A stretch of DNA of 64,000 bases from assembly GCA_000004985.1 (NCBI GenBank), contig GG738851.1. One strand, given 5' to 3'. Positions 7,535-60,700 of the stretch are shown one piece after another. Within the stretch, counting starts at the first letter, position 1, and the number at the start of each line of letters is the position of its first letter. Origin of the DNA: Naegleria gruberi (taxonomy: Eukaryota). The position numbers were made by a program, and so were the translations under genes. The notes beneath the pieces were generated by a model, which was given only the letters and a program-made list of their open reading frames with translations, searched no databases and had not been told where the DNA came from.

Positions 7535-7652
7535 GACTACAGCACCACAGGTTCCCAAGTTGTCTCCAACCTCAGTACTGATGTGGCTCGACGATGCTTA
7601 ACTTCTCAAATCGGACGGGATGAGGTGCATTCATCGTGATATGGCCGTAGCC
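7535..7652 (-). rRNA. 5S ribosomal RNA gene, copy 2 (118 nt)
   Basis: Same 5S sequence as copy 1 with microheterogeneity (GATGAATG instead of GATTCATG). Followed by a T5 terminator. The upstream ~40 nt resembles the flank of copy 1. Confidence 0.9.
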
Positions 7653-9292: not shown

Positions 9293-10330
9293 ATAACCTG
9301 AAAAATCTGGTTGTTCAAATGACTATATGATAGTTATTTTGTTATTATTAATTTGATGTATGTAGCAATCATTCACCATTAGTAGGATAAATTCATCAAT
9401 GGTATTACATTAATTATTATTATAATAATATTATTGTTCATAATTATTATTCAAATAGTAAAGTCAACCGATCAAATCACAAAAACCGAACCGTATTATC
9501 AAATAATAGCAAGAAACAAGAATTGGGTGTGATTATCATCATCATAGGGGAGAGAGAAGAAAACATTCAGTATTACAGTTGGTGTGTTTTTTGTTCAAAG
9601 TAAAATTTAAAAAAGAGCGCGGCAAGTTTTATACAGCAAGCAGGATAACAAGCAATTACGGTATATCATCATATCATTATCAAAAGAATCACATGAATGT
9701 CGCAACAATATATATATTATCAAACAATTGTCTCTGTGTTATTATACTACTATTATTGACTAGTAAAAATACGTACGTCCATCATTTTCTCTGTTTTTTT
9801 GTGTTGGGTGATTTGGTTATAATGTTACTTGTGTTGTTGCTGGTCGAGGAAGAAGTGAGGGAGCAATATTGTGAAATGCGCAGCAGTTTAGCTGTTGTTG
9901 ATTTTGGTTAACACAATGAACTCGTTTTTTTGCAATATATAAAATTGTGATAATTGACAGACAGTTGTTGCATGTCTTGCGGCAAAAGCAAATCAGGTCA
10001 CACAAAAGAGCTTGCCATCAACGTTGAATGACTACTACTATTGTAATGGAAATGTTGTTTGGTTACGAATCACTTGATCTTTGTAAACAGGTCGAAAATG
10101 GTCATCAGATGAAAACAAAACAACATTAAGTGTTCTGAAAGTTTTGATAAAAGTTTAGTTCTGATATTTTCAAAGCAATTCCAATAGAAATTGAACACTT
10201 TATCCAGTGCCATTTGCTCAATGGTACAAGGTTTGATGCAAGTGAGTGAACTACTTCCTTTGAACTTGGCAGAACATTTTTGAATATCCAAAATTTTTGA
10301 AAGGAAAGATCTGTAAATCAAGTTAAAAAA

Positions 10331-34764: not shown

Positions 34765-34882
34765 GGCTACGGCCATATCACGATGAATGCACCTCATCCC
34801 GTCCGATTTGAGAAGTTAAGCACCGTAGAGCCACATCAGTACTGAGGTTGGAGACAACTTGGGAACCTGTGGTGCTGTAGTC
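34765..34882 (+). rRNA. 5S ribosomal RNA gene, copy 3 (118 nt)
   Basis: GGCTACGGCCATATCACGATGAATGCACCTCATCCCGTCCGATTTGAGAAGTTAAGCACCGTAGAGCCACATCAGTACTGAGGTTGGAGACAACTTGGGAACCTGTGGTGCTGTAGTC, then T5. Its upstream flank matches copy 1 in inverted orientation. Confidence 0.9.
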
Positions 34883-35052
34883 TTTTTATTTATCCTTAGC
34901 TGTTGAATTAAAAAGGATTCGTTGATTATTACTTTTTAATATTAAATATCAGTTTGATTATTACTCTGAAACAAGTAATCAAATTTCAATAATTCACTAT
35001 TCACAGTTTAATTTATTTACAATAATTGAGAGAGTTTACGATATTATGCTAT

Positions 35053-36368: not shown

Positions 36369-36439
36369 CTCGAACGCCGGGAATTGAACCCGGGTCGCCA
36401 GAGTGACAGTCTGGAATGCTACCACTATACCACGCCCGA
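36369..36439 (-). tRNA. tRNA-Asp (anticodon GTC)
   Basis: Reverse complement TCGGGCGTGGTATAGTGGTAGCATTCCAGACTGTCACTCTGGCGACCCGGGTTCAATTCCCGGCGTTCGAG folds as a cloverleaf: acceptor TCGGGCG/CGTTCGA, anticodon stem CCAGA/TCTGG with loop CTGTCAC, T-arm CCGGG-TTCAATT-CCCGG. A T-run terminator lies downstream. Confidence 0.85.
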
Positions 36440-39488: not shown

Positions 39489-40229
39489 TTATTGTTCTTC
39501 AACAACGATACCACTGTCAATAACCTTGACTTCTTCAGCTGGCTTATCACCATAACCAGTTCTAACATTTTCAATCTTTCTAACAACATCCAAACCAGAG
39601 ACGACTTGTCCGAAAACAACGTGCTTACCATCCAACCATGGAGTTGGTCCCAAAGTAACAAAGAATTGAGAACCATTAGTGTCTGGACCAGCATTAGCCA
39701 TGGAGAGACATCCAATGAAGTGCTTAACCTTGAAGTTTTCATCAACAAATCTATCACCATAAATTGACTTTCCACCCATACCATTACCCATAGTGAAGTC
39801 TATCATGATATTAATCCAAGTCAATATTCAACAATAATTGAAAAGCATATGATTAATTCGGATCAACAAAGATGTTAAAGATATTAAAAACATACCACCA
39901 CCTTGAATGACAAAGTTAGTAATAACTCTGTGGAAAGTAGATCCCTTGTAACCGAATCCTGGAGTACCAGCAGTCAATTGCTTGAAGTTTTCAGCGGTCT
40001 AATCAAAAGATGATGATTCATCATATTTGTATAAATGTAAAATGTTGAAAATACAAACCTTTGGGACGGTCTTACCATACAAACCGAAAACAATTCTACC
40101 AGCTGGAATACCACCAATGGTGATATCAAAGTAGACTTTATCAGTAATTTCCTTGTCGTCAGCCTTGACCAAAGCGACCATCATCAAGACGATGGCGACA
40201 GCGGCAAAAGTAATAAAACGCTTATTCAT
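39489..40229 (-). CDS. Secretory-pathway cyclophilin (peptidyl-prolyl isomerase, cyclophilin-B-like), complement(join(39489..39799,39896..39998,40059..40229)), 194 aa
   Basis: Signal peptide [23 protein letters not shown]. Core [28 protein letters not shown]...[17 protein letters not shown]. Introns of 60 and 96 nt. The stop of ORF 39999..40229 is the TAG that ends intron 1. Confidence 0.85.
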
Positions 40230-40508: not shown

Positions 40509-41240
40509 TTAGTGAGATTTCGCCTTTTCCAAAAGTTGATTAACCTTGTTCAGAATACCATCTTCTGCGAGAGCCGAACGATTAGAAACTGGGTCAATAA
40601 TATAAAAATTAAAACAGTGAGTGGCAGTATGTTCATATAAAGTAGTGGAAACACAAGGTTGCAAAAGTGTGACCCAGTTAAAACAAGTGACGCAACGATT
40701 AACAACAGTACGTCCAGTCTCGGAATCCTTCTTGAAAGATACAGGAATTTTAACAAGATCTACTTGAGCAGAGTGATCTTCTTCTCCTGGCTTGTATCCT
40801 GGCAAATTGCAAGGAAGCTTGAAGGCAATTAAATCTGATTGATTCAACAAAACTTCAAGCTTTTCAGCAAAAGATTGTCCTTCAACCAAACCGATCAAGT
40901 AGGCCTTTCCTCCATTAATACCAGGGGCCGAGTTTGTTGTCAATAAACCATTTCCATTAATTGAAACAAGTGATCCAATAAGAGGAGATGTTTCTAATTG
41001 TAATCCGTTTGTGTATGGTGTTGTTTTTGTTTCTCCACGAATAAAATCAATATTCAGAGCAATCAAATCTTGAAAGCTGTTGCTCTTCTTGTATTGTTCG
41101 AGAGTTTGTTCAGAGAGTGTGAGAGACATTTTTTTTAAATATTTTGTGAGCGCCAATTCTCCTTGGTGTGAGTGATGAATTTTCAGTGCCTTATCGGGTC
41201 CATTTGTGGAAATAGAAAAAACAATAACAAATGGATTCAC
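40509..41240 (-). CDS. Hypothetical protein (243 aa, or 206 aa from the internal Met MSLTLSEQ)
   Basis: Uninterrupted ORF with a CxxC pair (CVTCFNW) and a Gly/Asn-rich middle. No family recognised. Confidence 0.4.
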   Translation of the reverse strand: MNPFVIVFSISTNGPDKALKIHHSHQGELALTKYLKKMSLTLSEQTLEQYKKSNSFQDLIALNIDFIRGETKTTPYTNGLQLETSPLIGSLVSINGNGLLTTNSAPGINGGKAYLIGLVEGQSFAEKLEVLLNQSDLIAFKLPCNLPGYKPGEEDHSAQVDLVKIPVSFKKDSETGRTVVNRCVTCFNWVTLLQPCVSTTLYEHTATHCFNFYIIDPVSNRSALAEDGILNKVNQLLEKAKSH

Positions 41241-41542
41241 ACAACTTGGACTCTGAGTTATTAAGTCCTCTCTAATGATTGAAGTAATTGGATGAAGCTT
41301 ATTAGGAGAATCGTTGAAAATAATTGAATGAAGTTTAAAACAATTGAAGAAAGGCGTTTACAAACAAATTGAAGTTTGAATTAGTAAATTGACCATTTTG
41401 AAAATTGTACAATTAAATATGTGCCCCATGAGAAGAATTGGTTCAAATTAAAAAAATGCAATAGTTTAAAATCTTAAAGATTGGTTTTTAAACTAAACCA
41501 AAAAAACTCAATCAAAACTCTTATAAACATCTCTTTTAAACC

Positions 41543-41680
41543 ATGCCTTGTCCTCATTGCTCCAAAGTTGCTCACAATCAACAATGTCCTTGTGAAGAGA
41601 AAGGAGTTTGTACATGCGAAAAGTGTGATTGTTCTCATTGCAAGAACATGCAAAGTAAGAATACAAAGAACATACAATAG
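41543..41680 (+). CDS. Small Cys-rich metallothionein-like ORF (45 aa), below the ORF-track size cutoff
   Basis: MPCPHCSKVAHNQQCPCEEKGVCTCEKCDCSHCKNMQSKNTKNIQ has 9 Cys and 3 His in CxC/CxxC spacing. A TATAAA lies about 20 nt upstream of the ATG. It sits in an otherwise gene-free 650-bp gap. Confidence 0.35.
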   Translation: MPCPHCSKVAHNQQCPCEEKGVCTCEKCDCSHCKNMQSKNTKNIQ

Positions 41681-41888
41681 TTTCCTTTCTGTTTGTGACG
41701 CTCCACTAATAAAAAACACAATTCTTTAGTTGAATTGGCTAACTTTCATTAAATGTTATTCTTTGAATTGCAAAATGGAGGATATCTGGTAGTCATGATG
41801 AATTCCATCTTAATATTTAATTTTCAGTGAGCGCCAAAATCTTCCCGCCAATTTTTCATACATTTTTCAAAAAGAAAATCTCAAAACG

Positions 41889-44329
41889 ATGTCCTCATCA
41901 TCCTCCTCATCACCTCTGTCATCAGGAGGAGGTCATCAGCAACAAAATCAACAACAACAACAGCAACCCGAAGTAATGGGGTTTGATCATCATCATTATC
42001 ATATTAATGCATCTCCAGCCTTAACGTATGTGTTTACAAGTATAAATTTAATTAATAATTTGCTATCTTGTTTAATAGAAAGGAGGAAATTACTCAATTG
42101 ATGGATTTGATACATGATAAGGATTCTAGGATAAGAGATTTGGAGAAGGAATTGAATGAGAGCAATAAATTAGCTTCTGAAGTACAATATCGATTACTTG
42201 AAACAAAGCGAATAGTGGAAGATAGAGACCGAGGGCTGCTGAGTAGTTCCCTTCCCGAAGAATTCAAGCTGACACTTAAGAAACTAGAACTCGAAACACA
42301 ACATAAGGAGGCCCTGCTAAAGGAGAGAAAACAAATGAAATCCAGCCTCAAAAACTATAGGAACGAGAATAAGGAATTGAAGGAAAAGATTAACGAGTTT
42401 GAAAGAGCAAAGAACCAACCAGACCAAACTTCCCTTGAATTGTCACAACACAAACAAAAGGTTTCTGAATTGCAAACCCAAGTGGCCTACATTCAGGGTA
42501 AATTAGTGTTAGAGTTAAAGAGAAAGGAATGCGAAAATGAAGAAAAAGCATTGCTTCAAGCAGAAGTCAATAGATACAAAAAGATGGTAGAAGAAGGACA
42601 GAAAACCCTCGAAAATTTGAAACAGGAACAATTCAATACTCAGAGACTTTTAGCCCAAACTTCGGAGCAGAGCAAAAAATTGGAAGTACTAGGATTTGAA
42701 GCACGTAAGCTTCCATTAGTTGAGGAAAAACTAGGTTCATACAAATTACATTTGGAAAAGACAAAACAACAAAATACCGAGCTCACTCAACAATTACAAG
42801 AAGCTAGGAAATACATTGATGATCTTCAATCCGAAAGGGCTCAAAACAATTCCAATTTTCAAAAGGCAATTGGAACATTGGAGGAAGAGCTGGGTTATTA
42901 CAAATCTCAGCTTAAAAAGAAACAGGATGAGATTGAACACTATGGACTTCTCACAAAAGAGTTGGAAGCTGATATGGCAAAAAAGAAGGAAGAGCATAAT
43001 GAGATTGTAACCAAATATTACCTCGTCAAAGAGGAGCACGAAACTACAGTATCTCAAATTGGAGAATATCATCAAGAAGTTGCTGCTCTCAAGGTTCAAT
43101 TGACTCATTTTACAAAACTTCAATCTCAATACAATGCTCTCAGGGATGAATATGAAGTTTTGAAGAACCAAAATTTGAGTTTTGTTCAACGAGTTGCCGA
43201 AACTGAAACCGAATTGCTGGAAAAGAAGGAGCAAATAAGAACAACTTCTAGACAGCTCTCTGATAGAAAGAAAGAAAATAAGAAGGAAGCCATCTCCTAT
43301 CAACAAGACTTGAGGGAAGCCAACGATAAGATAAAAGAGCTCCTGCTAAAGCTATCCCATGCAGAGGATACTATTGATGATTTGAAGGATAAAATCAAAA
43401 ATGTGAACAAACAATTGGCCGAAACTCAAAAGTTAAATAAGATGGACAAGGATATGGTTAAAGATTATGTTGAAAAGATTGACCAACTCAATGAAGAGTC
43501 TAAGAAATTGTAAGTTTTAATGCATGAACTCAAATTGATTGTTTACTGTTTTTATAGGAACATTTCTGTTGCCAATTTGAAGAGAGCTCTCAAACAGAAA
43601 GAGGATGAAGTTGCAGGAAAAAACAACACTATTGATAGTTTAAAGAAAGAAAAGGAAAATGAACAAAAGAAAGCAACTGAATTGAGCTCCAAAGTGAAGG
43701 ACACTAATGAATATGAAGAAAAATTGAAAAAGTTCCAGAAATGCTCTTTGAGAAAAGATCAATTGATCAAGGAGCAGAAAGCATCTCTAACACTAACCCA
43801 AGACGAAAATAAGCGTCTAGTTGCATCTGTGTGTACATTGAAGAAAAAAACTGTGGAGATGGCTCAAGAATTCCAAAAGAGAGAAAAGGAGAAGGACAAG
43901 AAAATAGCAGAGTTGGAAGAGTTGCTCAAAGAGTTGAAAGACGAAAACGAAAGAAAGGATGAGGAAATTACTGAGATGAATTCTGATTTGAACGATATGG
44001 CCAAATCAATGGATTCTGATAAGAAACAAAGAGAATTAAGAATAAGAGAATTGGAAGATGAGATCAGAAACCTAAAAGAAACGAAGGATACTGAAATTAG
44101 ATTGTTAATTCAAAAGATTGAGCAACTGAAACGAGCCATTTCAGATTTCATTGACAAGGAAAAGAGGAAGGGTGAGGAAGAAATTATCAAAAAGCAAAAA
44201 GATATTGACACCTCATCAGATATGGACTTTTCAGTTCCATTAACGTTTGTCTCTGCCTCTGAATATGAAGAAATTATGAGCTCACTGAAGAAACCATCTC
44301 TTCACATTCTCAAACAACAACTCCTGTAA
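41889..44329 (+). CDS. Long coiled-coil protein, join(41889..42025,42079..43509,43558..44329), ~779 aa
   Basis: Ser- and Gln-rich N-terminal exon, then about 700 aa of heptad-rich E/K/Q/L sequence. Introns of 53 and 48 nt (GTATGT...TTAATAG and GTAAGT...TTTATAG). The frames agree with ORFs 42068.. and 43520... Confidence 0.6.
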
Positions 44330-44457
44330 ATATTTCCCTCTGTACCATCTAGACAACACCTCTAAGATTATTTAACATTCATTATTAACCAACTACCCAA
44401 CTATTTATTAACAATACATTTCAATTTAATAATATTATTAAATTAATATATTCTAAA

Positions 44458-46272
44458 ATGTTTAATTCATTACAATTCAAACCAAAGATTGAACACCATA
44501 AAAAAATGAGCAAGACACAATTTCGTGATTACTATGAAGTTCTCGGAGTGACGAAGGAAGCTACGAAGGAAGAAATTAGAAAAGCCTACAAGAAGCAAGC
44601 TTTAGTGTGGCATCCGGATCGTAACTTGGATAATCAAGAAGAAGCCACACATAAATTTAAAGAAATTCAAGATGCCTACGAAACACTCTTTGATGATAAC
44701 GAAAGAGCATGGTATGATGAGAATAAACACATCATCATGAAGGGAGGTATGGCAGCAGCTAAATCCGGAGCTTGTGATGATGATGTGGACAGAGAACCTG
44801 ATCAATTGAATTTGTGGAGTTATTTATCATCATCATGTTACACAACATTTAATAGCAATGATAAGGACAATTTCTTCAAGATTTATCAAACAGTTTTTGA
44901 TACCATTCTCAAGGAAGATGAAGAATATAAATCATCGAAAAAAGTTGGTGGAAGTTCAAGTAATAATGCTAATATTCAAAGTCCTTCATTTGGAGATGAA
45001 AATTCATCATTCGAACAGGTTAACAAATTCTATACCTATTGGTCAACTTATAGTACAAAGAGATCTTTTGCTTGGAAGGATAAGTATAGATTATCGGATG
45101 CAGAGAATAGATATATTAGAAGACAAATTGAGAAGGAAAATGAAATGGAAAGAAACAAAGCTAGAAAGGAATATAATGATTTGGTTAAGCATTTACTGAA
45201 GAAGGTTAAGGCAGACGATCCAAGAGTTAAAGCCGAAATGAAGAGAAGAAAAAAGATGCAAGATGAAATTGAAAAAAAGAAGGAAGAAGATAGACTTTTA
45301 CAAGAAAAGTTAAAGAAGGAATATTTGGCTGAAAAGGAAAGACTCAGACAACAATTGTTGAATGATGAATTTTCAGATGATGATGCTGATGTTCATGATG
45401 ATTTTTCAGATGAGGAAGAATATAATCGAGCTCAGGATGCTCTTGATGAGGTTGAGAATTTATATGATAATTTCTATGTTAGTGACACCAAGAAGAAGAA
45501 TAATAAGAATGGAAAGAAACAAGTTGTTGAAGAGGAGGATAACGAAGAGGAAGAACAACCAAGTGGAGAGCAGGAAAATGAAGAAAAACCTGCAGCAGCA
45601 ACTGCTGAAGAGGAAGAATTAGTTATTGAGGAAGAGGATAACAAGAAACCAACAAGTTCAGAACAAAAACCAGCAGAAAATGCAGAGGAAGCACAAAATG
45701 ATGACGATGACAACTTTTTCGGTGATAAGAAATCAAAGAAGGACAAAAAGAAGCAAAAGAAGCTCAAGAAGGGTATTGTCTATTTGGATCGTGAACAAAT
45801 TGAAATTCTCAAAGAATCTATCGAACAATCAAAACAACAGGAAAAGACTAAATCATCCTCAAAGAAAAAGTCAGGAAAGAAAAAGAAGGGAGACGATAGC
45901 GATGATGATTTTGTTCCAAAGTCAACCACTAAGAAGAATGCTGAACCAGCAAAGACAAACAAGGCAAACACTCCTTCCACTAAGCCAACTTCAAGCAAGT
46001 CAACGGAACCAAAAGCAAGCAGTAGCAATTCTGAAACAGTTCAACAAGAGGAGCAACAACCAACTGAAGAAACCACTGAACAAGATACAACAGAAAATGT
46101 TGCTGATGAAGTTGAAACGGGTGGAAAGAAGGATAAGAAGAAGCGTAGAGCCAAGGATAAAAAGGAAAAGAAGGACACTTCACTCAAGTGTAATGTTTGT
46201 GGTGAAGAATTTACCACCAGAAATTCTTTATTCCAACATATCAAAGATGAAGGCCATGCATTACATAAATAG
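44458..46272 (+). CDS. DnaJ (J-domain) protein with C-terminal C2H2 zinc finger, DNAJC21/Jjj1-like ribosome-biogenesis co-chaperone. Real start is probably MSKTQFRDYYE near 44506.
   Basis: J domain DYYEVLGV...HPDRN. Long acidic/Lys-rich charged region. C-terminal LKCNVCGEEFTTRNSLFQHIKDEGHA C2H2 finger. Confidence 0.75.
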   Translation: MFNSLQFKPKIEHHKKMSKTQFRDYYEVLGVTKEATKEEIRKAYKKQALVWHPDRNLDNQEEATHKFKEIQDAYETLFDDNERAWYDENKHIIMKGGMAAAKSGACDDDVDREPDQLNLWSYLSSSCYTTFNSNDKDNFFKIYQTVFDTILKEDEEYKSSKKVGGSSSNNANIQSPSFGDENSSFEQVNKFYTYWSTYSTKRSFAWKDKYRLSDAENRYIRRQIEKENEMERNKARKEYNDLVKHLLKKVKADDPRVKAEMKRRKKMQDEIEKKKEEDRLLQEKLKKEYLAEKERLRQQLLNDEFSDDDADVHDDFSDEEEYNRAQDALDEVENLYDNFYVSDTKKKNNKNGKKQVVEEEDNEEEEQPSGEQENEEKPAAATAEEEELVIEEEDNKKPTSSEQKPAENAEEAQNDDDDNFFGDKKSKKDKKKQKKLKKGIVYLDREQIEILKESIEQSKQQEKTKSSSKKKSGKKKKGDDSDDDFVPKSTTKKNAEPAKTNKANTPSTKPTSSKSTEPKASSSNSETVQQEEQQPTEETTEQDTTENVADEVETGGKKDKKKRRAKDKKEKKDTSLKCNVCGEEFTTRNSLFQHIKDEGHALHK

Positions 46273-48701: not shown

Positions 48702-51700
48702 TTATTTGAAAACGATTTGTTCAAATTGTTCAACACTGGTGAATTTCAATAATTGGGTAGTGTAGAGAGTTGCAATGCCTTCAAGCTTGGATAATGCTTC
48801 CTGATCAATAGATTCCAATTTCTTGGACAATTTGACAATCCATTCTTCAGTGCTGGCATGTTTGATTGATTCCTTAATTGGCAAGCCTGATGGAGACTTT
48901 AAATGGTTTTGGAATGCATCAATTAGAGCAACAAATATCAGGGCAGGTCTTTGTGCATTGAACTTTTCTTCTTCAGAACCACTTGTGGTATTCTTAATGG
49001 TTGATACAACTCTTTCAATAACAATTTTCTTATAATGGTTCCATTCTTCTAGAGTCATCAAATAGAGAGATAATATGGCATTGTAGCTAATATTTTCCAA
49101 TTCAAGTGTTGTCTCCATGTCCGTGCTCAAAAAGCTTGTCAATAATGTTTCTTGTGTTTCTCTGTTCTTGTTGAGAGTATCCAAAATGTAGATACCCATT
49201 TGAATCATGAAAGGAATCAATTTAACTTGGTGAATAGCACTACCACCTCCAGAATCCTTTGAGAATGATTCTTCTTTAGCAAACTTGTTTAACAATAACA
49301 TCAAGTCGTGAGAGAGGAGATCAAAAGACTCTCTTCCAGTATTCTTTACGAGTGACAAATCTGATACGTACTTTTGAACAGCATTGGAATAATTGCTTGC
49401 TGAAGTCTTTGGACCCTTGAATGGGAAAAGGGCGTTACATTTGGTGAAAGAATTTCTGATTTGAGCACCTTCCCATTCTGTCTTTGGTGGATTTCTATTC
49501 TGGTCAGCGGTAACAGCAAGAGTGTGACAAGATGAGTGAATAGTATTAAATTGTGTAACTGAGGAGATGGCACTAGAGTTATCTGAAAGATAACAGTGCT
49601 TGCAGAACATGTAGGTTCCCAAAACTTCTTCTGGCTTGAAGCTATTACCATCACCACAAACAGAACACAAAATACCCTTGTCTTCCTCTTCTGCCTCATC
49701 AAAATTAAATGTAATCTTTGGTTGTTTCAATTGCTTGAGAGTCTTTTCACGTTTAGACATGGCTTTCTTCTTCTTTTCCTCTTTAGTACTCTTTCTAATG
49801 TTACTGATGATAGACTTGGATTGAGAGGATCCTTCTGCAATACTATTGAGAAGTGATTCAGCATATGTTGCAATCATCTTTTCCTCGGTATTTTCTTCAA
49901 TCTTGTGTAGAATTCTAAAGAGTGGTTCACTGTTGAGCAGATTATGAGTTGGAGAGTGGAACGTAACCAATCCTTGCAGCAAGTTAAGTGCATAAGGAAG
50001 TGCTGGTAAAGACAGTGATGATTTCCAATCTTGAGATTCTCCAAAGTGATTCAAAACAAAGTCCAGAGCTAACTTGGTGATACCCCTTTGAAGTATTTGA
50101 GTTTTAAGATTATTACCTGCAAAATCGTTTGGAATGCTGGTAACTACATTCACAAATGAGTCGAGATAGAACTTTTGCTTGGTAGTATTTTCAAATGTTT
50201 CAAACTTGAGATATGGCTCAAAATATTGAATTAGGTAATTCATTGGCTCCTCCAAACCATAGGTTAAGAAAGGTAATATGGATTGGACTGCTCCAACAAT
50301 CTTGGTGCTGCAAACTGGCAATCGTTCCAAGAACATTTTCAATTGTTCCAATATTTCCTCATTACTAATCTTGTACTTGTCTGATTTTCCAATAATATTT
50401 GGTGACATTGGTGATAAGTCTGATGAATCAACGTTGAAAATGTCAGCAGAGATAGGGCTAAGAGGACTACTCAAAGGACTTGCTGGTGTTTCATGACTCA
50501 TCTTGGTAGCCTCCTTGATGAGAGGTCTTATTACGAGGAGTAATAGTTCTGCAATTTCTGCCAAATCACCATGTTGGAAAACATATTTGCACTTGGAAAG
50601 TAGGCATTCAACAGAATCTATCATTAAAAATCTTCTTCTATTCAACTTGACATTAGTACAGTATTGCATGAATTGCAGAAGATTCTTGGCCAAGCTCTTA
50701 TCAGAGCTAAAATCTGTAATTGATCTTAAATAAGAAACCATAACTTCAATACCTCCATACTTGGAAATAATTCCTGTAATCTTACATCTTTGGGCAATAT
50801 TGATAGAATCATCTTCACTTGGGAGAGTATCCACATTATCTTCTGATGCTTCATCAATACCTTGGAATCTGTAAATAACTTCCATAGGAGCATTTGGAGT
50901 GCTACCTTCCATATTTCTTGTGAGCCAGACCTTTTCGTAAACTCTTGTAACTGGTAAGTTGAGAGCAATAATCTTGTTATTCACCAAAAGTTCGAATGGA
51001 ATATCTGAATGAATGGAGAGTTCCTCACAAATCTTATCCTTTACATCTGACATTAAAGCTGGTCCTCCAGAACTATTCTTAAAGTCTACAGAATTCCATG
51101 TTTGTCTTGACAGTCTTCCTTGGAAGTAGAATTCCTGGCTTGCTGCACGAACAAGTTTCAACTTGAAAACAGGTTCCTCCTTGATTGGTTGAATAATATT
51201 ATTCAATTTTTCAAAAACAAATAAGGCTGTTCTGTTATCACTGTAAAGTTTGAGAGTATCAACACAAGCAGCAATAAACAATTTCTTGTCATCTTCTGTA
51301 TCTTGAAGTTTTTCAGTGAGTGACTTGAGCATTTCATAACTGTCAGTTGTTGCCTTTGTTTTTTGAACAACAAGAGATTTGAGTGAGAGGAAACTTCCTA
51401 AAACTGTGCTAATATGTTGTTCGTTTGTCTTGAATTCTGTCAATATTTCTGGAATTATTAAGAATTCAGAGAGGAGAGAAACCAAAAAGTATAGACTGGA
51501 GCCAGTAGAAAGATCTTGACTTTGATTTGTGTTTGAATTTTCAAGTTTGTGTATGTAGCTCACTTCCTTCTTGAGCAACTTGCAAACAAAGCTCAAGAAG
51601 CCCTTACTTGAAAGTAATGTCTTTCTCTCTTCCTGTTTGACCAATTCATTGAAAAGTTTAAAGAAGCATGAAGATACCTCACCTCGTTTCATAGCTTCAG

Positions 51701-54700
51701 ATAATAGAGCAGTAAGAGCTTGGAGAATACCAATTTGTTTGTGTGAGTTGTCTAAACAAAGGGATTGTAATATTTGCAATGTCAATTCTCTCACAGTATT
51801 TGAGGAAAGGTTAAGGAGAGTATTGGAAAGGAATTCTCTACCTAGAATATCAAAGTCATTTCTTGGCAACTTCTTTGGAATTTGATTATTCTTGAACATT
51901 TCGAAAGTCATTTCTCCTTCCTTAACTTGATGATATCCAAAGTGTAATCCTCTCATTGGTACTACTGTTTGATCGGTAGTGCTGTGTTCTGAGGATGGTT
52001 TTGAATTTCCGTAAGAAATAAACTTTTGAAGAATAATCAAGCATGGTTTGATCATTTCTTCACAAATAATAACGGAAGAGCTGAACTTGGAGGTCTCTAA
52101 TAAAACCTCAAACAATAATTGGATTCTATTGTTAAAGAATGGATCTTTTTCATCAAAAGTTCTTTTCAAAAGTTCAGTAAGTGCTACCAATTGAGAGGTT
52201 ACATCGTAGCCCTTTAAAGTCTTTCGGCAGTACTTGACAATTTGTTCTTTGAGTTTGGAATTAACTTTTTCGCTGACTTGCTCATTTCCAAAGGATAGAC
52301 AAGTTAGCAATTTAAATGATTTTTCTTTCAATCCTCCTCTACTAATATTCTTGAATAGTTCTTCAACTAAATTGTCATTGAAATTTACGTCGTTATTGTC
52401 TTTAACTGTTAAGAAAAAGTCCATAACATTGGAAACAAAGTTATTTGCACAACCATAACACTTATTTTCGAACTGATTAGAAGATTGTGAACTTGTGCTT
52501 TCATGGTAATACTTCTTGTCTGATTGTCTGTTTGCAGAAATGTATTCTCTCAAATGCTTTCTTGTTGTGAGCATTAGCTTTTGGCAATGTGACAGCCCAC
52601 CATGGAGAGTCTTTGTTTCATTGTTATAAACATCTTGGAGAGAGGAAATAACTTCGGAGAGCTTTTGTTCCCCATAATCTCCTGTCTTTAACTTTACAAG
52701 CAGAGATTTAATCTCAGAACTCTTGGTCTTCAAAGCAGAAAGTTTAGCTTCACTTGAATTGAGTTGGTTGTCAATGATCTGTAAGGACTTTTTGCAATCA
52801 TCTTCATTTCTAATCTTGTCTCCAATGAATACTTGTTTGGCACTCAAAGAGAAGGCAAAAGTGGCAAACTTGCAAGTACCACAAGTGGAACAAATGAATG
52901 CGTCCAAGTTATCATAATTAATTCCCCTACAATTACTGCATGAAAATACATTTTCACCACATGAAAGACAAAGTCCATACTTGTCATAGACAGCAATTCC
53001 ACAAGAATCACAAAAGAGTGCATCCATAGAAGCCAAATCAAAGTAAAAGCTTGAAAATTCAACCAATAGGTTGCAACATGTAACTGGAACACTAAAAGTT
53101 AATGTGGCAGATTGCTCTCCTTTTGCAACATTCATTGTACCAGCCCTTTGCCAAACTGTTGAGTTTTTAGGTAAATCATTGGCGTCCAGTGCTTGGTTAT
53201 TGTTGAAATAAATTTCCACTGTTCTAATCATTTTGGATCTCTTAAAATCACTTATGTCAATTGACATTGATTCTATTGTGTAAGAATTAGAAAGCTTGTA
53301 GTAGTGAGATGAATGGGATTGTTTTTGACCTTGGATAATATCTTGTAAATTGAGTTCCTTGAAGTCAAGTTCAGGATCACTACAGACCAAACAAGGAGTT
53401 GTTTCCAAGTAATAACCAGAAGGTTCAACAGAAATATATTGTTGAATGGTATCATAAATGTAAGAATTAGGATGGTTACAAATCAATCCATTTTGTGATT
53501 GTAAACACTTGGCCAATTCATCAGCAATTAATTGCTTCTTTTCTGGATAGTGGTCATAGATTGGAATCAATAGGTTGTTCAAAAATTCTTTACCCTTCTT
53601 ACCGTAGTATGGCAAGGATTGAACTCTCTTTACGATGATGTTAAAAAGCATCTCCTTGTACTTGACACTGAATTGTACAAGTTTTGACATTAGGTGGGCA
53701 GCTTCTGCTCTGATTGTGTTTGTTTCTCCATTGAAAATAAAATCTACAAACTTATTTAACGTCTTTGCAGAGTGAGTAGTGATCAGAGAAGAAAGTTTTT
53801 GTAGAGTAGAGTCATTGTCTGATACAAAAGACATGTTCAGTAAAAGGAGAGGAATAGTAACGCTCTCATCCAATAAGAATGAAAACTCGAACAAGGCAGG
53901 CAAAACATTTTCATGTTCCATGCAGAAGTTGATCCAATTTTCTGGTCTTGCCTTGACACTATCCATAATATCGTTGACTTTAACTACTAATCTTCTTGCC
54001 TTTTCTGGTGACCAAACAGAGACAGGATCGGAACCATTGACAAAGTCTGACAGCTTGGACTTGAATAATTTTTCATCCATGAGTTTGTTGTAGAATTGCT
54101 CACTTCCACAAATCAAAAGAAGATTGTATTTTCCAATTGATCTGATGAATGGAGTTTCGTCTAGAGCAATGTTTGAGAAAAAGTTACTCCATTTTTGTTT
54201 GTCTGCTTCAATTACTGGTATTACATTAATAACATGTTTGAATAGTCTCAATACAACTTGTAAAACTATCTTGGGATAGGATGCAAATACATCAGACTTA
54301 TTTTCTTCCAGGTATGCCAATGAGAATATTGGAGAGAATAATCTGGTAGGAATTTCTTTTTGGCTTCTCAGTAAGCCTCCCATGATATCCTCAAAGTCAG
54401 CTTGATTTCCTGGAACAAACAATGCTAACATATCATCGCAAACAGACACCATGGATGTATGCAATTCAGGAATTGACTCTGTCAATAAATTACAAATTTC
54501 TTTTCTAAGTGAAGGAACAAACTTGGAATCAGAGGAGGTAGAAAGAAGAGAGGCAAGCATGGCCATGATGAGTGTTCTCTTCTCGCTTGCTGGGCTTTTC
54601 ATGGCGAGATTATTCAACAAGTCTGTAAAATTAAATGCTAATGAGCGAATAAATGTTGAAATACTTGTTTCATACTCATCTTCTTTCAAATTCGAACAGT

Positions 54701-57700
54701 ATTTAAGAATTGATACAGAAACAAGTTGAAGAATATTTAGCAATGAAAGAGAGTCGTGTGTCTTTTCTGTAAGGTCCACCAAATAGGTAGTGAAAATTTG
54801 TACTTTGTCATTTGGAACATTGCTGAAAGTCATCATGCTTGCCAAAGAGGTAGAGCAGCTTGTACGCACTGCCTCATCATCGTCCAATAGGAATTTAGAA
54901 ATTTGATCTAAAGATCCTGATTCCTTGTAAAATTCAATAAAGAGAATTGAGCTATACAGTTTGATTAAATTGTCATGATTCAAGTTTCCATCGAATTTGT
55001 TTTTTTCTATCAGTGAATAGAGTGTTTTCTTAAAGTCAACTTCGGACTTGATTTGGTCAAAAACTTGCTCATAATCAAATTCTATTGCCTCCAAATATTT
55101 AGAAATTACAATATCAATCTTGAAGGAGTCCATCTCTTGTAATTTCTTCTTTGAAATATATTTTAACTCAACTGCTGTTTTGGAAGTAACGAAAGATTTT
55201 GGTTCATCACAAAGAGAAATCATAGTAGAAATCAAATAGTCTTTAACCTCTTCAAACTTTGGTATCATTAGACATTCTGCCATAATGGAGAAAATATTAG
55301 TCTTGGATAATTTGGTTTCAATACCATTCTTTTGGAAGTAGTCAGAAATAGTTCTGTTCAAGAAGTATATCATAGATATTTCTTCTGAAGAGAAGGATAG
55401 CTTTTCTTCATGGTGCATGCTTGTTTCCTCCACAATCTTTGGCTCTAACTTCTTTTTGCTATAATTAAATCTAAATGTAGATGAAAAAGTACCAAATATT
55501 TTGATGGAATCTATTGCAGGTTCGTTTGACCCACCATGTACTGTTGAAAATTCAATCTCCAACTCTGACAAATCTAAAGCCTCTTGGTTTGTGAGAATAA
55601 TAGTGTACCACTTTTCAGTATCAACTTCAGTCTCTATTGTATGACTATTCATAAGGATGGAATATGGAATAGAGTTTTTGTTAGATTTTCCTACTAATAC
55701 TTGGATGTGAGTAAAGACATAATCATCTGGCTTTTTAACTTTGAATTTTAAATTGCTACCTTGCACGAAGAGAGTGTTATTTTCATCTAATGAATCTTTA
55801 AAAGAATCCAATCCAATATCATTGACCTTTTCCCCTTCAAAAGTGCATTTAGAGGTAATATCCTCACTTGTTTCTGTATCAATTGGTAAACTGTCCAAGT
55901 CTTTTGGTTTTTCAGTAACCACTGGCTTTGAAAGCTTTTGTTTAACCTTCTTTACAGACTTGGCACCGTGTCTCTTTCTCAATTCTTTGAATATTCTACT
56001 CTTTGGTGGTAGGGAAAGACAAGGAACGATCTCTTTGGTAACAGAATACTTAATCAACTCGCCACTGCTAAATAAGCCAATAATTGAGGAGTTTTTGCTG
56101 AATGGTGGTATACTCGTTATTCCTTGAATAGTGTGGGAATCTGGAGTATCTAAAATTTGGTATTCAACCTTATCCTTCAAAAAGTTAAATAGAACCAATT
56201 TGTAATTGCTGGTCATTACTGCAACAACACCACACATATCAATAGCTTCCACCACATGAGTAAAGAATCCAAGAGATTTAAAGCTAGAATCTTTGGAGAG
56301 TTCCAAGCAAGACAAAATTTTACCAGACAAATGATCAAGTTGCAAGGCGACAGATGTACCATCCGCATAACTTACAAATAACATATGAGCAAGTTCTGAA
56401 TAGAACACATATTTTCCTTCTGAGGAGCCATTGTGTGTTGTAATTGTGATACTATCAGTGAATGTAGCTTCACCACCACTATTGAAATAGCTTTGATAGT
56501 AAAGTTGACCTTTCTTTGTAAGAGCAAAACATGTCTTTAAATCCTTCATTCCATTTGGATCAGAGGCAAATACACTCGATGCAATCAAATCATCCTGAGC
56601 AGCAAAGTTAAATGTAGGACAGAAAGTGTCTGAAGACAGGTCATACACCTTAACAAATTGGTTTGTTGTAACAGAAAGTAAGCACTGTTCTCCGGGCAAC
56701 CATTGAATATCAATAATATAAGTCTCGGTAGGCATATCTTCACATGCCAAATAGAGAGGGATTTGTTGGATAACGTTGCATTCAGAGTCTAAAACTAGTA
56801 CGTGACATTCATAAATACCTGCAACTGCTAAAAAGTTGTCATTTTCTGGATTGAACTTGATGTGGACAACTTTGAAAGGAACTGAATGAGTATTCATAAT
56901 AACAGCATCACTTCTGGTATTGTCCTTTTTCATATTATCTGCAAAATTTGTCGTATTTTTCATGAAGGAAATGTCACTTTGTTCTGATAGGGCCATAGTG
57001 TTCGACAAATTTGAAGCAAGTAAATGTCTTGGCATTGGTTTACTTCTAAAAATGTTGACCTCTTGTCTTCTCTCGAACGTAACATTAGCAGTGAAGGAAG
57101 ATGCTGCAAAAGAGGCAACTCTTTCAGCCAAAACTTTTTGTGACTCGGAAACTGAAAAATCTTCTTGTAGACTCCAAGAAAAATTCTTGCTCTCTGATTC
57201 TGTGGTTTGCTTTTCATACTCTTGTTTCAATTCGGATAGAATGGAGATGAGTTTTTCAATTAGTGAGTCACTAACACAAAGAGTATTGCCATTGGATGAT
57301 TCAATAGGCGTAGCTTCTGAATCTGGTTTGTCTGATACATCCTCCAGGTCTACATTAAATCCAGAAGTTTTAATCAAACTATGACTTGCTTTGTAGGAAT
57401 TATTCTCCATATTTTCCTCAATCTCTGTATTTGATTGAATCACTGGACCCTCAAAGGTGAAAACCTTCTCACTATTGGTTCTTTCCTTGAGATACTTCAA
57501 AATTTGACGATTGGATTCACCACGTTTAGAATCTAAATCTCTTTCCAAGTACTTGCATAAAAATGTACAAATAGACTCAATGATATGAACGTCCTTCTTT
57601 GCAGTTGGTGAGTCCAAAATCTCCACAAAACTATCAAGCAACTTGTCACCTCTGCTGATAGAATTAAATAATGGGAATAAATCTTGGGAAAGCTCGTCAA

Positions 57701-60700
57701 AGTTCTTACTATTAGAATATGCACATTCCTGTAAAACTTTCATCAATGAAGAAACAATGGCATCTACAAGTTGTTTTGAATTTTCCTTTCCTGATAAGCA
57801 TTTTATCAATTGCTCTATTTGTTTCCTTGTATCTTTAACCAAAACCTTACTTTCTATAAAAGTATTAAATCCTTCTGTTTCAGATAATACTTTAGAAATT
57901 TCCTTGTTTTCGGGATCAACCTTAGTTAAAATTGATTCAATAAAAGAGAGCAATAGGTTAAATATTTCAGCCGAATTTTCTGTTTGCATTAGTAAGCTCA
58001 TCAAAATAGAAGAGTTAAACTTTAGGTTCTCACAATATTTTGGACTTGTTGACTGACCGACAAGTAATACTTGAATGCTTTGTAATTTCTTTTCATCAGT
58101 AGAAAATATTTGATCTTCCAAATGTTCGAAAACTTCAGCTAAAACCTTCTTTGCAACTTCAACTTTCTTTTCTACCAACAAGGTTTTCTTGACTGATTCA
58201 ACAATTCTAAGAAGAGTAAAATTCTTGAAAATATGTAACTCCTGAACAAAACCATCTTTGAAAATATTGAAAAGAATTGATTCTACCAATAAGGCTGATC
58301 TAAATGTATAGTGTTCTCTAATATTGAATAAACTTTCGACTTTTTCTGAATTAAATTGAGACAAGTCGAGCATGTTTTGTTCAGTTGCCTTATTGATTGT
58401 GAAAGAAATTAATTCAATAACTGATTTGATAGAATGATACAAAGCAAATGCTGTAGAGTTCTCCCTTGAAAGATGTACACTCTTTACATTATGTATCAGA
58501 ATAGAATTGAAACTTTCTGCCAAGGACAACTCGGAGACAATTTTCTTGAGAGATTGTAATTTTCCATCATACCACTCACCAACGTTTAGAGTTGAAATCT
58601 TGGCCAGATTAGGTGAAGTGAAAGAGCTGATCAATGATACAATATCCTCCTTTGCAAGAGATGATTGGCAAATATCCAAGCATACATCTACTTCTTCAGT
58701 AGAAAGTTGATTGATTTGAAGTTCCTTGGAGAAAACCAAATACAAATCATTCAACAAATTCTTGAGCAATGAAAAGGAGAAATCTAAGGCTGTTTCGAAA
58801 AGCTTTTTTGATGGACTTTTCTCTATTTGCTTTTTAAGAAGCATACATGTTTTGTCAGAATAGAGAGACAAAAATATTGGCTTGACATTTTCAAAGCTTT
58901 TCTCTTTTAACACTCTTTCAACAACAGAATCATTAGATGCAGTCTTATCGTGGTAGAAAATCTCTGCTAAAATGTTGCTAAAGTTGTTCTTGTTAAATTT
59001 CAAATTTTCAATCTTCATCAAGGTTTTAATTAACCTGAGTGAGACATCTGTAAAGTAATCACATTCGTGGTTAGTATTTTTGTCTTGATAACTTGTAAAG
59101 GCTTCAAAAAGGACACATATCAACTTTTCAGCCATGTTATCCTTTGACAATATTTGCGTAACATGTGAAGAAAGCTGATTACTAGAGTAGTTCAACTCAA
59201 AAATACCATTACCCACATCCTTAGAGTCTAATTGTTGGAGTAATAAATTTTTAGATACTGTAATGTTCTCTCCCTTGATAAAACATGTGAGTTGTTGCAG
59301 TGCCGAAGATGGAATCTTTTCAAAGTTAAAGCACAAGTATTCAAACAATACCAAGATATTAGAAAGAAGTGTTTTCCTACTATCTTTCAAAAAGTCTTCC
59401 TTCAACACTTGTGTCAATAGTGAAGAAAATATTATCTTTCTTGTTTCAATAGAGAAGGTCTCAAAACTAAAAGCTAAGAATAGGCAAACCTCAACACCAG
59501 TTTGTGAAATTGAAACAGTTTCCAAAGATTTGATAAATGTTGTCCATATTGATTCATAAATTTTTCTATCAGATGAGTTGTGCAATACTAATTTCATAAA
59601 AATTCTTAACACTTGTGGCTTCATCTCAATAATACTCATGTTTAAAGATGCGATATCACAATTTGATGATGCCAAAATATCTAAAATCTTGTTAAACACC
59701 CTTTGAGTATCGTGATCACCAATATTTTCTCCAATTTTGAAAAGTTTGCTCAAGTTCTCAATGGAGCTGGAAACAAAACTATCCTTAAACTCCTTATTGT
59801 TTTCTTGGAGGCCATTTTTGAGTAAAACAAGGAAATTAGTGATTAAATCATTAGTGGATGGAGTTCCCAACTCGAGATCGACAGCCTTCTCCACAATGGT
59901 AATCACCTTGTTAATATTGGCGTGAGAGAACAATTCAGCATAAACTATAATTTCCTGCAATAATGATTTCTTAAACGTAAAAGCCTCCTCAACTTCTTTA
60001 ATCTTATTAAGAGGGAAATATTTTTCTATCATTGGGCTAACTATTAGTGGAAGATTGTAAGAATCTGGTTTGATTTCATTAAAAGTGGAGTGTGACGAAT
60101 AGATATTAGCCATTAGGTACAAGTAATTGGAGTAGATTGCCATGGACTTTTGAACGCCATCCTCCTCATTAAAAATGCAGAAAATACCGTTTAAAAAGTG
60201 GGCAAGTGCAAGTTTGGAATCTTTTGTGTTGGTTTTTTTAAGAATGAGAGTGGCAATAGATCTCAATATATCTGGACTATAGTTTCCAACAGATTGTTTT
60301 GTAATGATTTCTTTTACCTTTTCAATCAAAAATTCAGTTTCTATTTTACAGACATTCACATTTGGCTTTGAAAGAAGATTGATAATTTCGAATGTGACTC
60401 CACTCACTTCACCCTTTTGTTCATAATTAGAGCTCAAAATCTTGTTCAGTATGTAGCATAAATTTTCTCCAACAAGTAAATTATTGATGAGGTATGACCT
60501 AGATTGTTTAACAATCTTATCAAAAGAAAGAGTAGAATTTGAGAATTTTCCAATTACTGGTGTGATTGTAAAATTAGAATCCACTGATTGCTCGTTGGAG
60601 ATGATTAATAATTGTTGAATAATATCAGTATTTGGTATAGTTTCAGAATTTTCCTCTTTAGGTTTGTTGTCATTAAGATTAAAAGGAAAGGCAACCAACT

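What the first reader, a model, noticed from the sequence alone, without database searches (positions are those of the whole stretch)
41543..41680. Unannotated 45-aa cysteine-rich, metallothionein-like ORF with its own TATA box
The ORF is below the ORF-track size threshold. MPCPHCSKVAHNQQCPCEEKGVCTCEKCDCSHCKNM... has 9 Cys and 3 His arranged as CxC/CxxC pairs typical of metal-thiolate cluster proteins. A TATAAA lies ~20 nt upstream. It occupies a 650-bp gap with no other plausible gene. Small metal-binding proteins are routinely missed by gene callers.
Basis: seen in the sequence. Interest (0 to 1): 0.5.

Follow-up and report, generated by a model that had tools for sequence, protein, structure and literature searches.

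The report
Unannotated metallothionein-like miniprotein gene in Naegleria
A 45-residue, nine-cysteine open reading frame in this Naegleria gruberi window is a real gene under strong purifying selection, conserved in the brain-eating amoeba N. fowleri and other relatives, called in none of the assemblies read here, and most likely encodes a small metal-binding (metallothionein-like) protein of a previously undescribed family.

Summary
The ORF is exactly as described: 41543-41680 (+), 45 aa, 9 Cys and 3 His. The window is Naegleria gruberi.

Evidence that it is a real gene:
- An ORF this Cys-rich arose in 1 of 300 simulated windows.
- It sits at the same syntenic position, between a DUF6919 gene and a coiled-coil gene, in N. 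fowleri (three assemblies), N. lovaniensis and an environmental relative.
- All nine Cys, two His, the ATG and the stop are kept.
- N. fowleri and N. lovaniensis differ by 11 synonymous and 0 non-synonymous changes.
- The flanking intergenic DNA barely aligns.

It is not called as a gene in any assembly read, has no relative among billions of predicted proteins, and was not found in the literature searched.

It meets the sequence-level definition of a metallothionein: small, 20% Cys, no aromatic residues, three CxC and three CxxC motifs. Seven of its Cys align with all seven Cys of Neurospora Cu-metallothionein with one gap. It matches no known metallothionein family profile or solved structure.

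Metal binding, metal preference and expression are untested. The TATA-box claim is weak: the motif is not conserved and lies too close to the ATG.

Verdict: a real, unannotated, probably metal-thiolate miniprotein. It is a new, so far Naegleria-only variant of a known kind, of moderate interest.

The parts
41543..41680 (+). Single-exon coding sequence (stop included) of a 45-aa miniprotein with 9 Cys and 3 His. Cys spacing is C3-x2-C6-x8-C15-x-C17-x5-C23-x-C25-x2-C28-x-C30-x2-C33. H11 and H32 are invariant.
   Evidence: sequence. (syntenic orthologues in N. fowleri, N. lovaniensis and an environmental relative). (11 synonymous, 0 non-synonymous differences N. fowleri vs N. lovaniensis; differences concentrated at third codon positions). 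(invariant residues). (92% nucleotide identity in the ORF against 52% and 65% in the flanks; best codon-usage score in this frame). (chance test).
41522..41527 (+). TATAAA, 15 nt upstream of the ATG. A/T-rich element of doubtful significance; at most an initiator-like A/T-rich start region.
   Evidence: 47 copies in the window, below shuffle expectation. (at the same offset: AATAAA in N. lovaniensis, GTAAAA in the environmental relative, nothing in N. fowleri). (no positionally conserved upstream motif).
41708..41713 (+). AATAAA, 28 nt after the stop codon. Candidate polyadenylation signal of the small gene (inferred).
   Evidence: AATAAA lies 28 nt (N. gruberi), 58 nt (N. fowleri), 54 nt (environmental relative) and 117 nt (N. 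lovaniensis) after the stop. No transcript data available.
41831..41849 (+). Conserved GCGCCA...TTCCCGCC pair (E2F-site-like) between the small ORF and the ATG of the downstream coiled-coil gene (41889). Taken as that gene's own promoter-proximal element, and so as the 3' boundary of the small gene's unit.
   Evidence: the same pair in N. fowleri L001-L003 and N. lovaniensis L004. (TTCCCGCC occurs once in 64 kb; 0.13 expected). (a variant in the environmental L006). The functional reading is an inference.

Best explanation
41543-41680 (+) is an independent, single-exon, translated gene of Naegleria gruberi. It encodes a 45-residue cytosolic miniprotein whose nine invariant cysteines, probably helped by two invariant histidines, fold around metal ions as a metal-thiolate cluster. 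In other words it is a metallothionein-like protein. By analogy with nine-Cys and seven-Cys metallothionein domains it would hold about three divalent ions (Zn/Cd) or about four to six Cu(I), and would buffer or sequester these metals. Shown: the ORF exists, is improbable by chance, is conserved in synteny, is under strong purifying selection at the protein level, has no detectable homologue outside Naegleria-like genomes, and is not called as a gene. Inferred: that it binds metals, which metals and how many, that its role is buffering or detoxification, and that it has its own transcript.
For: The organism was identified from a 100% identical neighbour gene. Orthologous ORFs lie in the same gap and orientation in N. 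fowleri (three assemblies with identical DNA), N. lovaniensis and an environmental relative, and none is called as a gene. N. fowleri vs N. lovaniensis shows 11 synonymous and 0 non-synonymous differences in 45 codons; P is about 3e-9 if changes fell at random. The neighbouring DUF6919 gene over the same species pair has 86% amino-acid identity and dN/dS 0.17. N. gruberi vs the others shows differences at codon positions 1/2/3 of 8/5/18. All 9 Cys plus P2, H11, N12, P16, E18, G21, T24, D29 and H32 are invariant, while the K/Q/N-rich tail varies. Conservation is confined to the ORF. It fits the definition of a metallothionein quoted in PMC7216689 (at most 300 aa, 15-35% Cys, under 10% aromatic, CxC motifs): 20% Cys, 0 F/W/Y, three CxC and three CxxC motifs. 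C15-C33 aligns with all seven Cys of Neurospora crassa Cu-metallothionein 1T2Y with a single one-residue gap. The last five Cys have the spacing of the rat MT-2 beta domain, CxC-x2-CxC-x2-C. AlphaFold without metals gives no confident fold (pLDDT 64), as expected for a fold that depends on metal. Spacings of 42-134 bp between neighbouring CDSs are common in these genomes, so 60-209 bp to the next gene does not argue against an independent gene.
Against: No profile or sequence match to any metallothionein family or solved metallothionein, so the resemblance is in Cys pattern only. The pairwise E of 0.03 to 1T2Y rests on the cysteines alone. There is no transcript, proteomic or metal-binding evidence. 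Complete amino-acid identity between N. fowleri and N. lovaniensis, including the non-Cys tail, is tighter than a simple metal buffer would need and hints at a specific partner. The gene is single-copy in the sequence read, whereas detoxifying metallothioneins are often amplified. No conserved metal-responsive or other promoter motif was found upstream.
Confidence: 0.58

Rival explanations
1. It is a real translated miniprotein that binds zinc (or iron) only structurally. For example, the terminal CxHC knuckles (C3/C6 and C30/C33) could close a rubredoxin- or zinc-ribbon-like site while the central Cys form a second site. It would then act through a specific partner, as adaptor, regulator or chaperone, rather than as a metal buffer.
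For: 100% amino-acid identity between N. fowleri and N. lovaniensis, tail included, despite 11 synonymous changes. From the neighbour's rate about 8 non-synonymous changes would be expected. Several non-ligand residues are invariant: P2, N12, P16, E18, G21, T24, D29. Single copy in all sequence read. Two invariant His.
Against: No match to rubredoxin, zinc-ribbon, CXC/tesmin or any zinc-finger Pfam family at E up to 10; the PDB matches to zinc fingers have E above 1. Three CxC motifs and 20% Cys with no hydrophobic core residues are typical of thiolate clusters, not of single-site fingers. N. gruberi vs N. fowleri is only 57% identical, less than the neighbour's 66%, so non-ligand positions are free to vary over longer distances.
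Confidence: 0.25
2. It is an upstream ORF, or the first cistron, of the mRNA of the coiled-coil gene that starts at 41889 on the same strand. Its conserved peptide would regulate translation of that gene.
For: Same strand and always immediately upstream of the coiled-coil gene in all four genomes. The distance from stop to the next ATG is 209, 198, 175 and only about 60 nt. Conserved-peptide uORFs also show purifying selection on the peptide.
Against: A conserved E2F-like element pair, unique in the window, lies between the ORF and the coiled-coil ATG in all species and is best read as that gene's own promoter. AATAAA follows the ORF stop in all four. The whole neighbourhood is syntenic, so adjacency carries no information. 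Short spacings between tandem CDSs are normal here. Invariance of exactly the nine Cys and two His points to a folded metal-binding product, not a nascent-chain stalling peptide.
Confidence: 0.07
3. It is an exon of a larger gene, or a conserved non-coding element or chance ORF that is not translated.
For: A good splice-donor-like AAA|GTAAGA lies inside the N. gruberi tail at 41655, with an acceptor-like TTTTCAG at 41821-41827. No expression data.
Against: That donor is absent in the other three species, and the exon it would join is in a frame that stops at 41976 and is not the coiled-coil frame. ATG and stop are conserved at 45, 45, 45 and 39 codons. An in-frame stop lies just upstream. The substitution pattern is purely synonymous between N. 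fowleri and N. lovaniensis. No Rfam family matches here. The chance test gave 1 in 300.
Confidence: 0.04

Closest known systems
Fungal family-8 copper metallothionein (Neurospora crassa Cu-MT, PDB 1T2Y, 25 aa, 7 Cys)
   Same: Single small domain. The Cys topology CxC-x5-CxC-x(2/3)-CxC-x2-C is shared: all seven Neurospora Cys align with C15-C33 of the Naegleria peptide with one one-residue gap. No aromatic residues.
   Different: No similarity beyond the cysteines (pairwise E 0.03, no database-level hit). The Naegleria protein has an extra N-terminal CxxC, two invariant His, charged or polar (E/K/Q/N/H) rather than Gly/Ser linkers, and a 12-residue basic polar tail. It comes from an unrelated eukaryotic supergroup, so convergence is the likely explanation.
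Vertebrate metallothionein beta domain (rat MT-2, PDB 4MT2; 9 Cys, M(II)3Cys9 or Cu(I)6 cluster)
   Same: Nine cysteines in about 30 residues. The terminal five-Cys block CxC-x2-CxC-x2-C has the same spacing ([11 protein letters not shown] vs CTCEKCDCSHC). This gives a precedent for three divalent ions held by nine thiolates (established knowledge of 4MT2).
   Different: BLASTP E of 2.7 or worse and no PF00131 hit. No second (alpha) domain. The N-terminal half differs (CxxC-x8 instead of CxC-x5-CxC-x3). Conserved His are present.
Cu(I)-binding Cys-rich motifs of copper-sensing transcription factors (Mac1 type, CxCx4CxCx2Cx2H); comparison from my own knowledge, not tested here
   Same: A CxC...CxC-x2-C...H arrangement that binds a polycopper-thiolate cluster. 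The Naegleria core is CxC-x5-CxC-x2-C-x3-H.
   Different: Linker lengths differ. Those motifs are parts of large DNA-binding proteins, not free-standing peptides. I recalled the motif and did not verify it with a tool.
Conserved-peptide upstream ORFs (CPuORFs)
   Same: A short ORF directly upstream of, and on the same strand as, a larger gene, with the peptide under purifying selection.
   Different: A conserved promoter-like element and AATAAA separate it from the downstream gene. Its conservation pattern is that of metal ligands.

Membership tests
Metallothionein (operational definition, as quoted in PMC7216689 from Ziller & Fraissinet-Tachet 2018) | Small protein (at most 300 aa; classically under 10 kDa) | tested here: met
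   45 aa in N. gruberi, N. fowleri and N. lovaniensis; 39 aa in the environmental relative.
Metallothionein (operational definition) | 15-35% cysteine | tested here: met
   9 of 45 = 20%; 9 of 39 = 23% in the environmental relative.
Metallothionein (operational definition) | Few (under 10%) aromatic residues | tested here: met
   No F, W or Y in N. gruberi, N. fowleri or N. lovaniensis; one Tyr in the environmental relative.
Metallothionein (operational definition) | Cysteines arranged in conserved CxC / CxxC motifs | tested here: met
   CxC three times (15/17, 23/25, 28/30) and CxxC three times (3/6, 25/28, 30/33). All nine Cys are invariant in four species.
Metallothionein (operational definition) | Binds several metal ions per molecule in metal-thiolate clusters | not testable with these tools
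   Needs a recombinant protein with ESI-MS, ICP or spectroscopy. The AlphaFold model without metals is uninformative (pLDDT 64).
Metallothionein (operational definition) | Expression or metal load responds to metal supply; confers metal tolerance | not testable with these tools
   No expression data reachable. No conserved upstream motif found.
Known metallothionein sequence families (Pfam metallothionein models; solved metallothioneins in the PDB) | Significant profile or sequence match to a family model or member | tested here: not met
   The only Pfam hit at E up to 10 is an unrelated domain (DmmA-like_C, E 0.52). No metallothionein among PDB matches at E up to 10. BLASTP vs rat MT-2 gives E 2.7. 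HMMER's filters can drop weak, biased matches.
Fungal family-8 Cu-metallothionein (N. crassa type) | Cys pattern CxC-x5-CxC-x3-CxC-x2-C in a Gly/Ser-rich peptide of about 25 aa | tested here: not met
   The pattern is reproduced only with one linker shortened (x2 for x3). The composition is not Gly/Ser-rich. There are two extra Cys and a tail. It works alike, but is not a member.
Conserved-peptide uORF | Lies in the 5' leader of the downstream gene's mRNA | tested here: inconclusive
   Same strand, 60-209 nt upstream, but a conserved promoter-like pair and AATAAA intervene. Transcript ends are unknown.
Rubredoxin / zinc-ribbon miniproteins | Two CxxC knuckles forming one M(Cys)4 site, plus a family profile match | tested here: not met
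   CxHC knuckles exist at both ends, but no Pfam match and five further invariant Cys are left unexplained.
HMA / Atx1-like copper chaperone | MxCxxC motif within a ferredoxin-like domain of about 70 aa | tested here: not met
   The N-terminus reads M-P-C-x-x-C, but the protein is too short for the fold, has no PF00403 hit, and the Met is the initiator.

The most novel reading that the evidence does not exclude
The small ORF is not a free-standing gene but the first cistron or conserved-peptide uORF of the coiled-coil gene's mRNA. In this reading its nine-Cys, two-His peptide senses metal or redox state as it is made and so couples cellular Cu/Zn status to translation of the downstream gene. 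The evidence disfavours this (a conserved promoter-like element and AATAAA lie between the two ORFs) but does not exclude it, because no transcript ends are known and in one relative only about 60 nt separate the two ORFs.
Probability: 0.06. Interest if true: 0.7.

Novelty: new variant of a known kind. Interest (0 to 1): 0.42.

Why it matters
No metallothionein has been described for Naegleria in the literature I could search. The copper-detoxification study of N. fowleri (PMC7578549) attributes tolerance to a Cu-ATPase and the antioxidant system, and discusses metallothioneins only in other organisms. If this miniprotein is a metal buffer, it is a missing component of copper and zinc handling in a lethal human pathogen. 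It would also be an example of a metallothionein-type protein in Heterolobosea with no sequence relative elsewhere, adding to the picture of metallothioneins as repeatedly invented. In practice, transcriptomic and proteomic datasets for N. gruberi, N. fowleri and N. lovaniensis analysed against gene sets that lack this gene would not have been able to report it, because it is not called in the assemblies read here. Adding one 45-aa entry would let existing copper, iron and stress datasets be re-read.

Tried and rejected
- Exact-sequence look-ups of the peptide and of three neighbouring ORFs found nothing on record.
- The word-indexed homology search with the single peptide and with the three-sequence profile found no candidates.
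- The exhaustive phmmer search of 1.84 billion representatives gave 0 hits at E up to 0.001. For a 45-aa query, only fairly close relatives could pass that threshold.
- Two degenerate-DNA scans of JGI metagenome contigs, built on the conserved Cys/Pro/Glu/Gly/Asp/His codons, gave 0 matches. The distribution beyond the four genomes therefore stays unknown.
- Structure prediction was possible only from the single sequence. The result was low confidence, so I did not run fold searches, which would have been meaningless.
- A search for positionally conserved upstream motifs found only A-rich low-complexity words, giving no support for a conserved TATA box or a metal-responsive element.
- No paralogue with the Cys motif exists in the window or the seven loci.
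- Rfam found nothing at the locus.
- The spliced-exon reading was considered because of a GTAAGA in the N. gruberi tail. It was rejected because the donor is not conserved and the joined frame terminates.
- A literature search for the peptide strings gave 0 papers.
- The two Naegleria GenBank entries counted as 'metallothionein' in PMC7216689 Table 1 could not be identified. They cannot be this ORF's N. fowleri, N. lovaniensis or N. gruberi product, since no protein sharing words with these peptides exists in the collection, which includes NCBI.

Full report
**What is there.** The window is AT-rich (about 33% GC) and eukaryotic. The neighbouring ORF 40512-41129 (-) is 100% identical to a Naegleria gruberi predicted protein with a DUF6919 domain. 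The flagged ORF runs from ATG 41543 to TAG 41678-41680 on the plus strand. It translates to MPCPHCSKVAHNQQCPCEEKGVCTCEKCDCSHCKNMQSKNTKNIQ: 45 aa, 9 Cys and 3 His. An in-frame TAA lies two codons before the ATG.

The ORF sits in a 759-bp gap. On one side is the DUF6919 gene, whose ATG is at 41129 and which reads leftwards. On the other is a coiled-coil gene whose ATG is at 41889 and which reads rightwards.

**Is it more than chance?** It is the most Cys-rich of the 283 ATG ORFs of at least 30 aa in the window. In 300 first-order Markov simulations of the window, only one produced any ATG ORF of at least 40 aa with at least 9 Cys in 35 residues. Codon-usage log-odds, trained on the long ORFs of the window, is highest in this frame: +10.0 against +4.9, -10.0, +4.0, -22.4 and +5.5. 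With 45 codons that test is weak.

**Conservation, the decisive test.**
- I fetched the contigs that carry the DUF6919 orthologues (66%, 66% and 63% identical). These came from N. fowleri (NCBI GCA_008403515.1 plus one Logan and one ENA assembly), N. lovaniensis (GCA_003324165.2) and an unnamed environmental relative (ENA, JGI and Logan contigs).
- In each genome the gap upstream of the DUF6919 gene holds an ORF of the same kind in the same orientation. N. fowleri and N. lovaniensis give MPCEHCSKVTHNEKCPCEQSGQCTCVNCDCPHCGKKQQQAHTQHK (45 aa). The environmental relative gives MPCKYCQEHVHNNQCPCEQKGVCTCEKCDCPHCQNVKKQ (39 aa).
- None of these is called as a gene in the tables.
- All nine Cys are invariant, as are P2, H11, N12, P16, E18, G21, T24, D29 and H32. 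The K/Q/N-rich tail after Cys33 varies.
- The N. fowleri and N. lovaniensis proteins are identical, yet their DNA differs at 11 sites, all synonymous (dS about 0.78, dN 0). The chance that 11 of 11 random changes are synonymous is about 3e-9.
- For scale, the DUF6919 neighbour over the same species pair is 86% identical, with dN/dS 0.17.
- Against N. gruberi, differences at codon positions 1/2/3 are 8/5/18.
- In a four-way alignment of the whole intergenic region, conservation is confined to the ORF. N. fowleri vs N. lovaniensis identity over the longer sequence is 92% in the ORF, 52% upstream and 65% downstream.

The ORF is translated and under purifying selection.

**Is it known?**
- The exact peptide is not on record.
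- No protein in a collection of 5.8 billion clusters shares even three 5-residue words with it or with its three orthologues.
- An exhaustive HMMER search of 1.84 billion representatives found nothing at E up to 0.001.
- Two degenerate-codon scans of JGI metagenome contigs found nothing.
- Nine papers in the library contain both 'Naegleria' and 'metallothionein', and none of those read describes a Naegleria metallothionein. The N. fowleri copper-detoxification paper discusses metallothioneins only for fungi and used a yeast cup2 mutant. A review table counts two GenBank entries from Naegleria carrying the word, unidentified.
- The peptide strings occur in no paper.

**What it most likely is.**
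- The peptide has no signal peptide or hydrophobic segment, so it should be cytosolic (seen directly in the sequence).
- Its Cys spacing is CxxC-x8-CxC-x5-CxC-x2-CxC-x2-C.
- It meets every sequence-level criterion of the working definition of a metallothionein quoted in PMC7216689: at most 300 aa, 15-35% Cys, under 10% aromatic residues, and CxC motifs. The values here are 20% Cys, no F/W/Y, three CxC and three CxxC motifs.
- I verified two reference sequences against the PDB. Neurospora crassa Cu-metallothionein 1T2Y is GDCGCSGASSCNCGSGCSCSNCGSK. Rat MT-2 4MT2 has the beta domain [31 protein letters not shown].
- BLASTP aligns all seven Neurospora Cys with C15-C33 of the Naegleria peptide with a single one-residue gap. 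The pairwise E is 0.03 and rests on the cysteines alone.
- The last five Cys have the same spacing as [11 protein letters not shown] of the rat beta domain.
- From established knowledge of those structures, nine thiolates hold three Zn/Cd or about six Cu(I) in the mammalian beta domain, and seven thiolates hold six Cu(I) in Neurospora. By analogy I infer a single metal-thiolate cluster of about 3 M(II) or 4-6 Cu(I), with H11 and H32 as possible extra ligands. Which metal is preferred cannot be read from the sequence.
- AlphaFold on the single sequence gives no confident fold (pLDDT 64, mostly coil). That is what a metal-dependent fold would give, but it is weak evidence.

**Membership.** It is not a member of any known metallothionein family.
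- No Pfam metallothionein model matches at E up to 10.
- No solved metallothionein matches.
- BLASTP against rat MT-2 gives E 2.7.

Metallothioneins are polyphyletic, so this lowers 'it is a family-X metallothionein' but not 'it works like a metallothionein'.

**Independent gene or uORF?** The ORF lies on the same strand as the coiled-coil gene, 209, 198, 175 and about 60 nt upstream of it in the four genomes.

Four observations favour an independent gene:
- A conserved pair GCGCCA...T(T/C)CCCGCC, resembling E2F sites, lies between the ORF stop and the coiled-coil ATG in N. gruberi (41831-41849), N. fowleri and N. lovaniensis, with a variant in the environmental relative. TTCCCGCC occurs only once in the 64-kb window, against 0.13 expected. 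I read this as the coiled-coil gene's own promoter-proximal element; that is an inference.
- AATAAA follows the ORF stop in all four genomes, at +28, +58, +117 and +54 nt.
- Spacings of 42-134 bp between neighbouring CDSs are ordinary in these genomes.
- Invariance of exactly the potential metal ligands fits a folded product better than a stalling peptide.

Transcript ends are unknown, so the uORF reading keeps a small probability.

**The TATA box.** TATAAA at 41522-41527 is real but weak evidence.
- The hexamer occurs 47 times in the window, fewer than in shuffles.
- At the same offset the relatives have AATAAA, GTAAAA or, in N. fowleri, nothing similar.
- No positionally conserved motif exists upstream.
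- It lies 15 nt from the ATG, so a canonical TATA would put the start site inside the ORF. This last point rests on general knowledge of TATA-to-start-site spacing; Naegleria promoters are poorly known.

**A caveat on function.** Complete identity between N. fowleri and N. lovaniensis, tail included, is tighter than I would expect for a pure metal buffer. About 8 non-synonymous changes would be expected at the neighbour's rate. The gene is also single-copy in all the sequence I could read. A structural multi-zinc miniprotein with a specific partner is therefore a serious rival, at about 0.25. Against that rival, N. gruberi and N. fowleri are only 57% identical, which is less than their DUF6919 neighbours at 66%. 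Non-ligand positions therefore do drift.

**Verdict.**
- My probabilities are about 0.93 for a real protein-coding gene, about 0.8 for metal binding through the cysteines, and about 0.55-0.6 for a metallothionein-type buffering role.
- Novelty: a new variant of a known kind, namely a lineage-restricted, sequence-orphan metallothionein-like family.
- Interest is moderate (0.42). Specialists expect small Cys-rich genes to be missed. But this one is a concrete, testable candidate for the missing metal buffer of Naegleria, including the pathogen N. fowleri, and existing datasets analysed against gene sets without it would have missed it.

Noticed in passing
window 41831-41849 (+); L001 9187-9204 (-); L004 9308-9331 (-); L006 about 355-375 (-): A conserved pair GCGCCA(N4-12)T(T/C)CCCGCC, resembling E2F binding sites, lies 40-110 nt upstream of the coiled-coil gene's ATG in all four Naegleria-like genomes. 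TTCCCGCC is unique in the 64-kb window. A related GAGCGCCAAT lies 20-30 nt upstream of the DUF6919 gene's ATG (41150-41159). This may be a cell-cycle promoter element; the transcription factor was not identified.
   Followed up: partly
window 1994-2112 (-), 7534-7652 (-), 34765-34883 (+): Three dispersed full-length 5S rRNA genes (Rfam RF00001, 100-105 bits) scattered among protein-coding genes rather than in a tandem array.
   Followed up: no
window 36369-36439 (-): A single tRNA-Asp (GTC) gene, found by both ARAGORN and Rfam.
   Followed up: no
window 48702-60863 (-): One uninterrupted ORF of 4053 aa. By synteny with N. lovaniensis (the gene carrying PF13764, E3_UbLigase_R4) it is probably a UBR4-type giant E3 ubiquitin ligase. 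It contains a Cys-rich stretch, [35 protein letters not shown], near 52970.
   Followed up: no
window 41889-46272 (+): The downstream coiled-coil gene starts with a poly-Ser/poly-Gln segment, has a short intron of about 53 nt (about 42027-42079), and lies in a strongly purine-skewed stretch (AT skew about 0.3, GC skew 0.17 over 42-46 kb). It has no Pfam family above threshold. Its N. fowleri counterpart is called as 839 aa.
   Followed up: no
L001 about 9440-9560 (-), upstream of the N. fowleri small ORF: N. fowleri carries a roughly 100-nt insertion of imperfect tandem CCACTCTTTTACCAACT-like repeats immediately upstream of the small ORF's ATG. It is absent from the other three genomes and displaces whatever promoter lies there.
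   Followed up: no
L005, L006, L007 (JGI 3300002220, ENA ERZ27315067, Logan SRR636569): An unnamed Naegleria-like organism is present in three independent environmental datasets. Its DUF6919 protein is about as far from N. gruberi (63%) as N. fowleri's is. It carries a 39-aa version of the miniprotein only about 60 nt upstream of the coiled-coil gene's ATG.
   Followed up: partly
window 39489-40229 (-): A cyclophilin B-like peptidyl-prolyl isomerase gene with an N-terminal signal peptide, split by at least one short intron (Pfam PF00160, E 2e-27 for the 3' exon).
   Followed up: no
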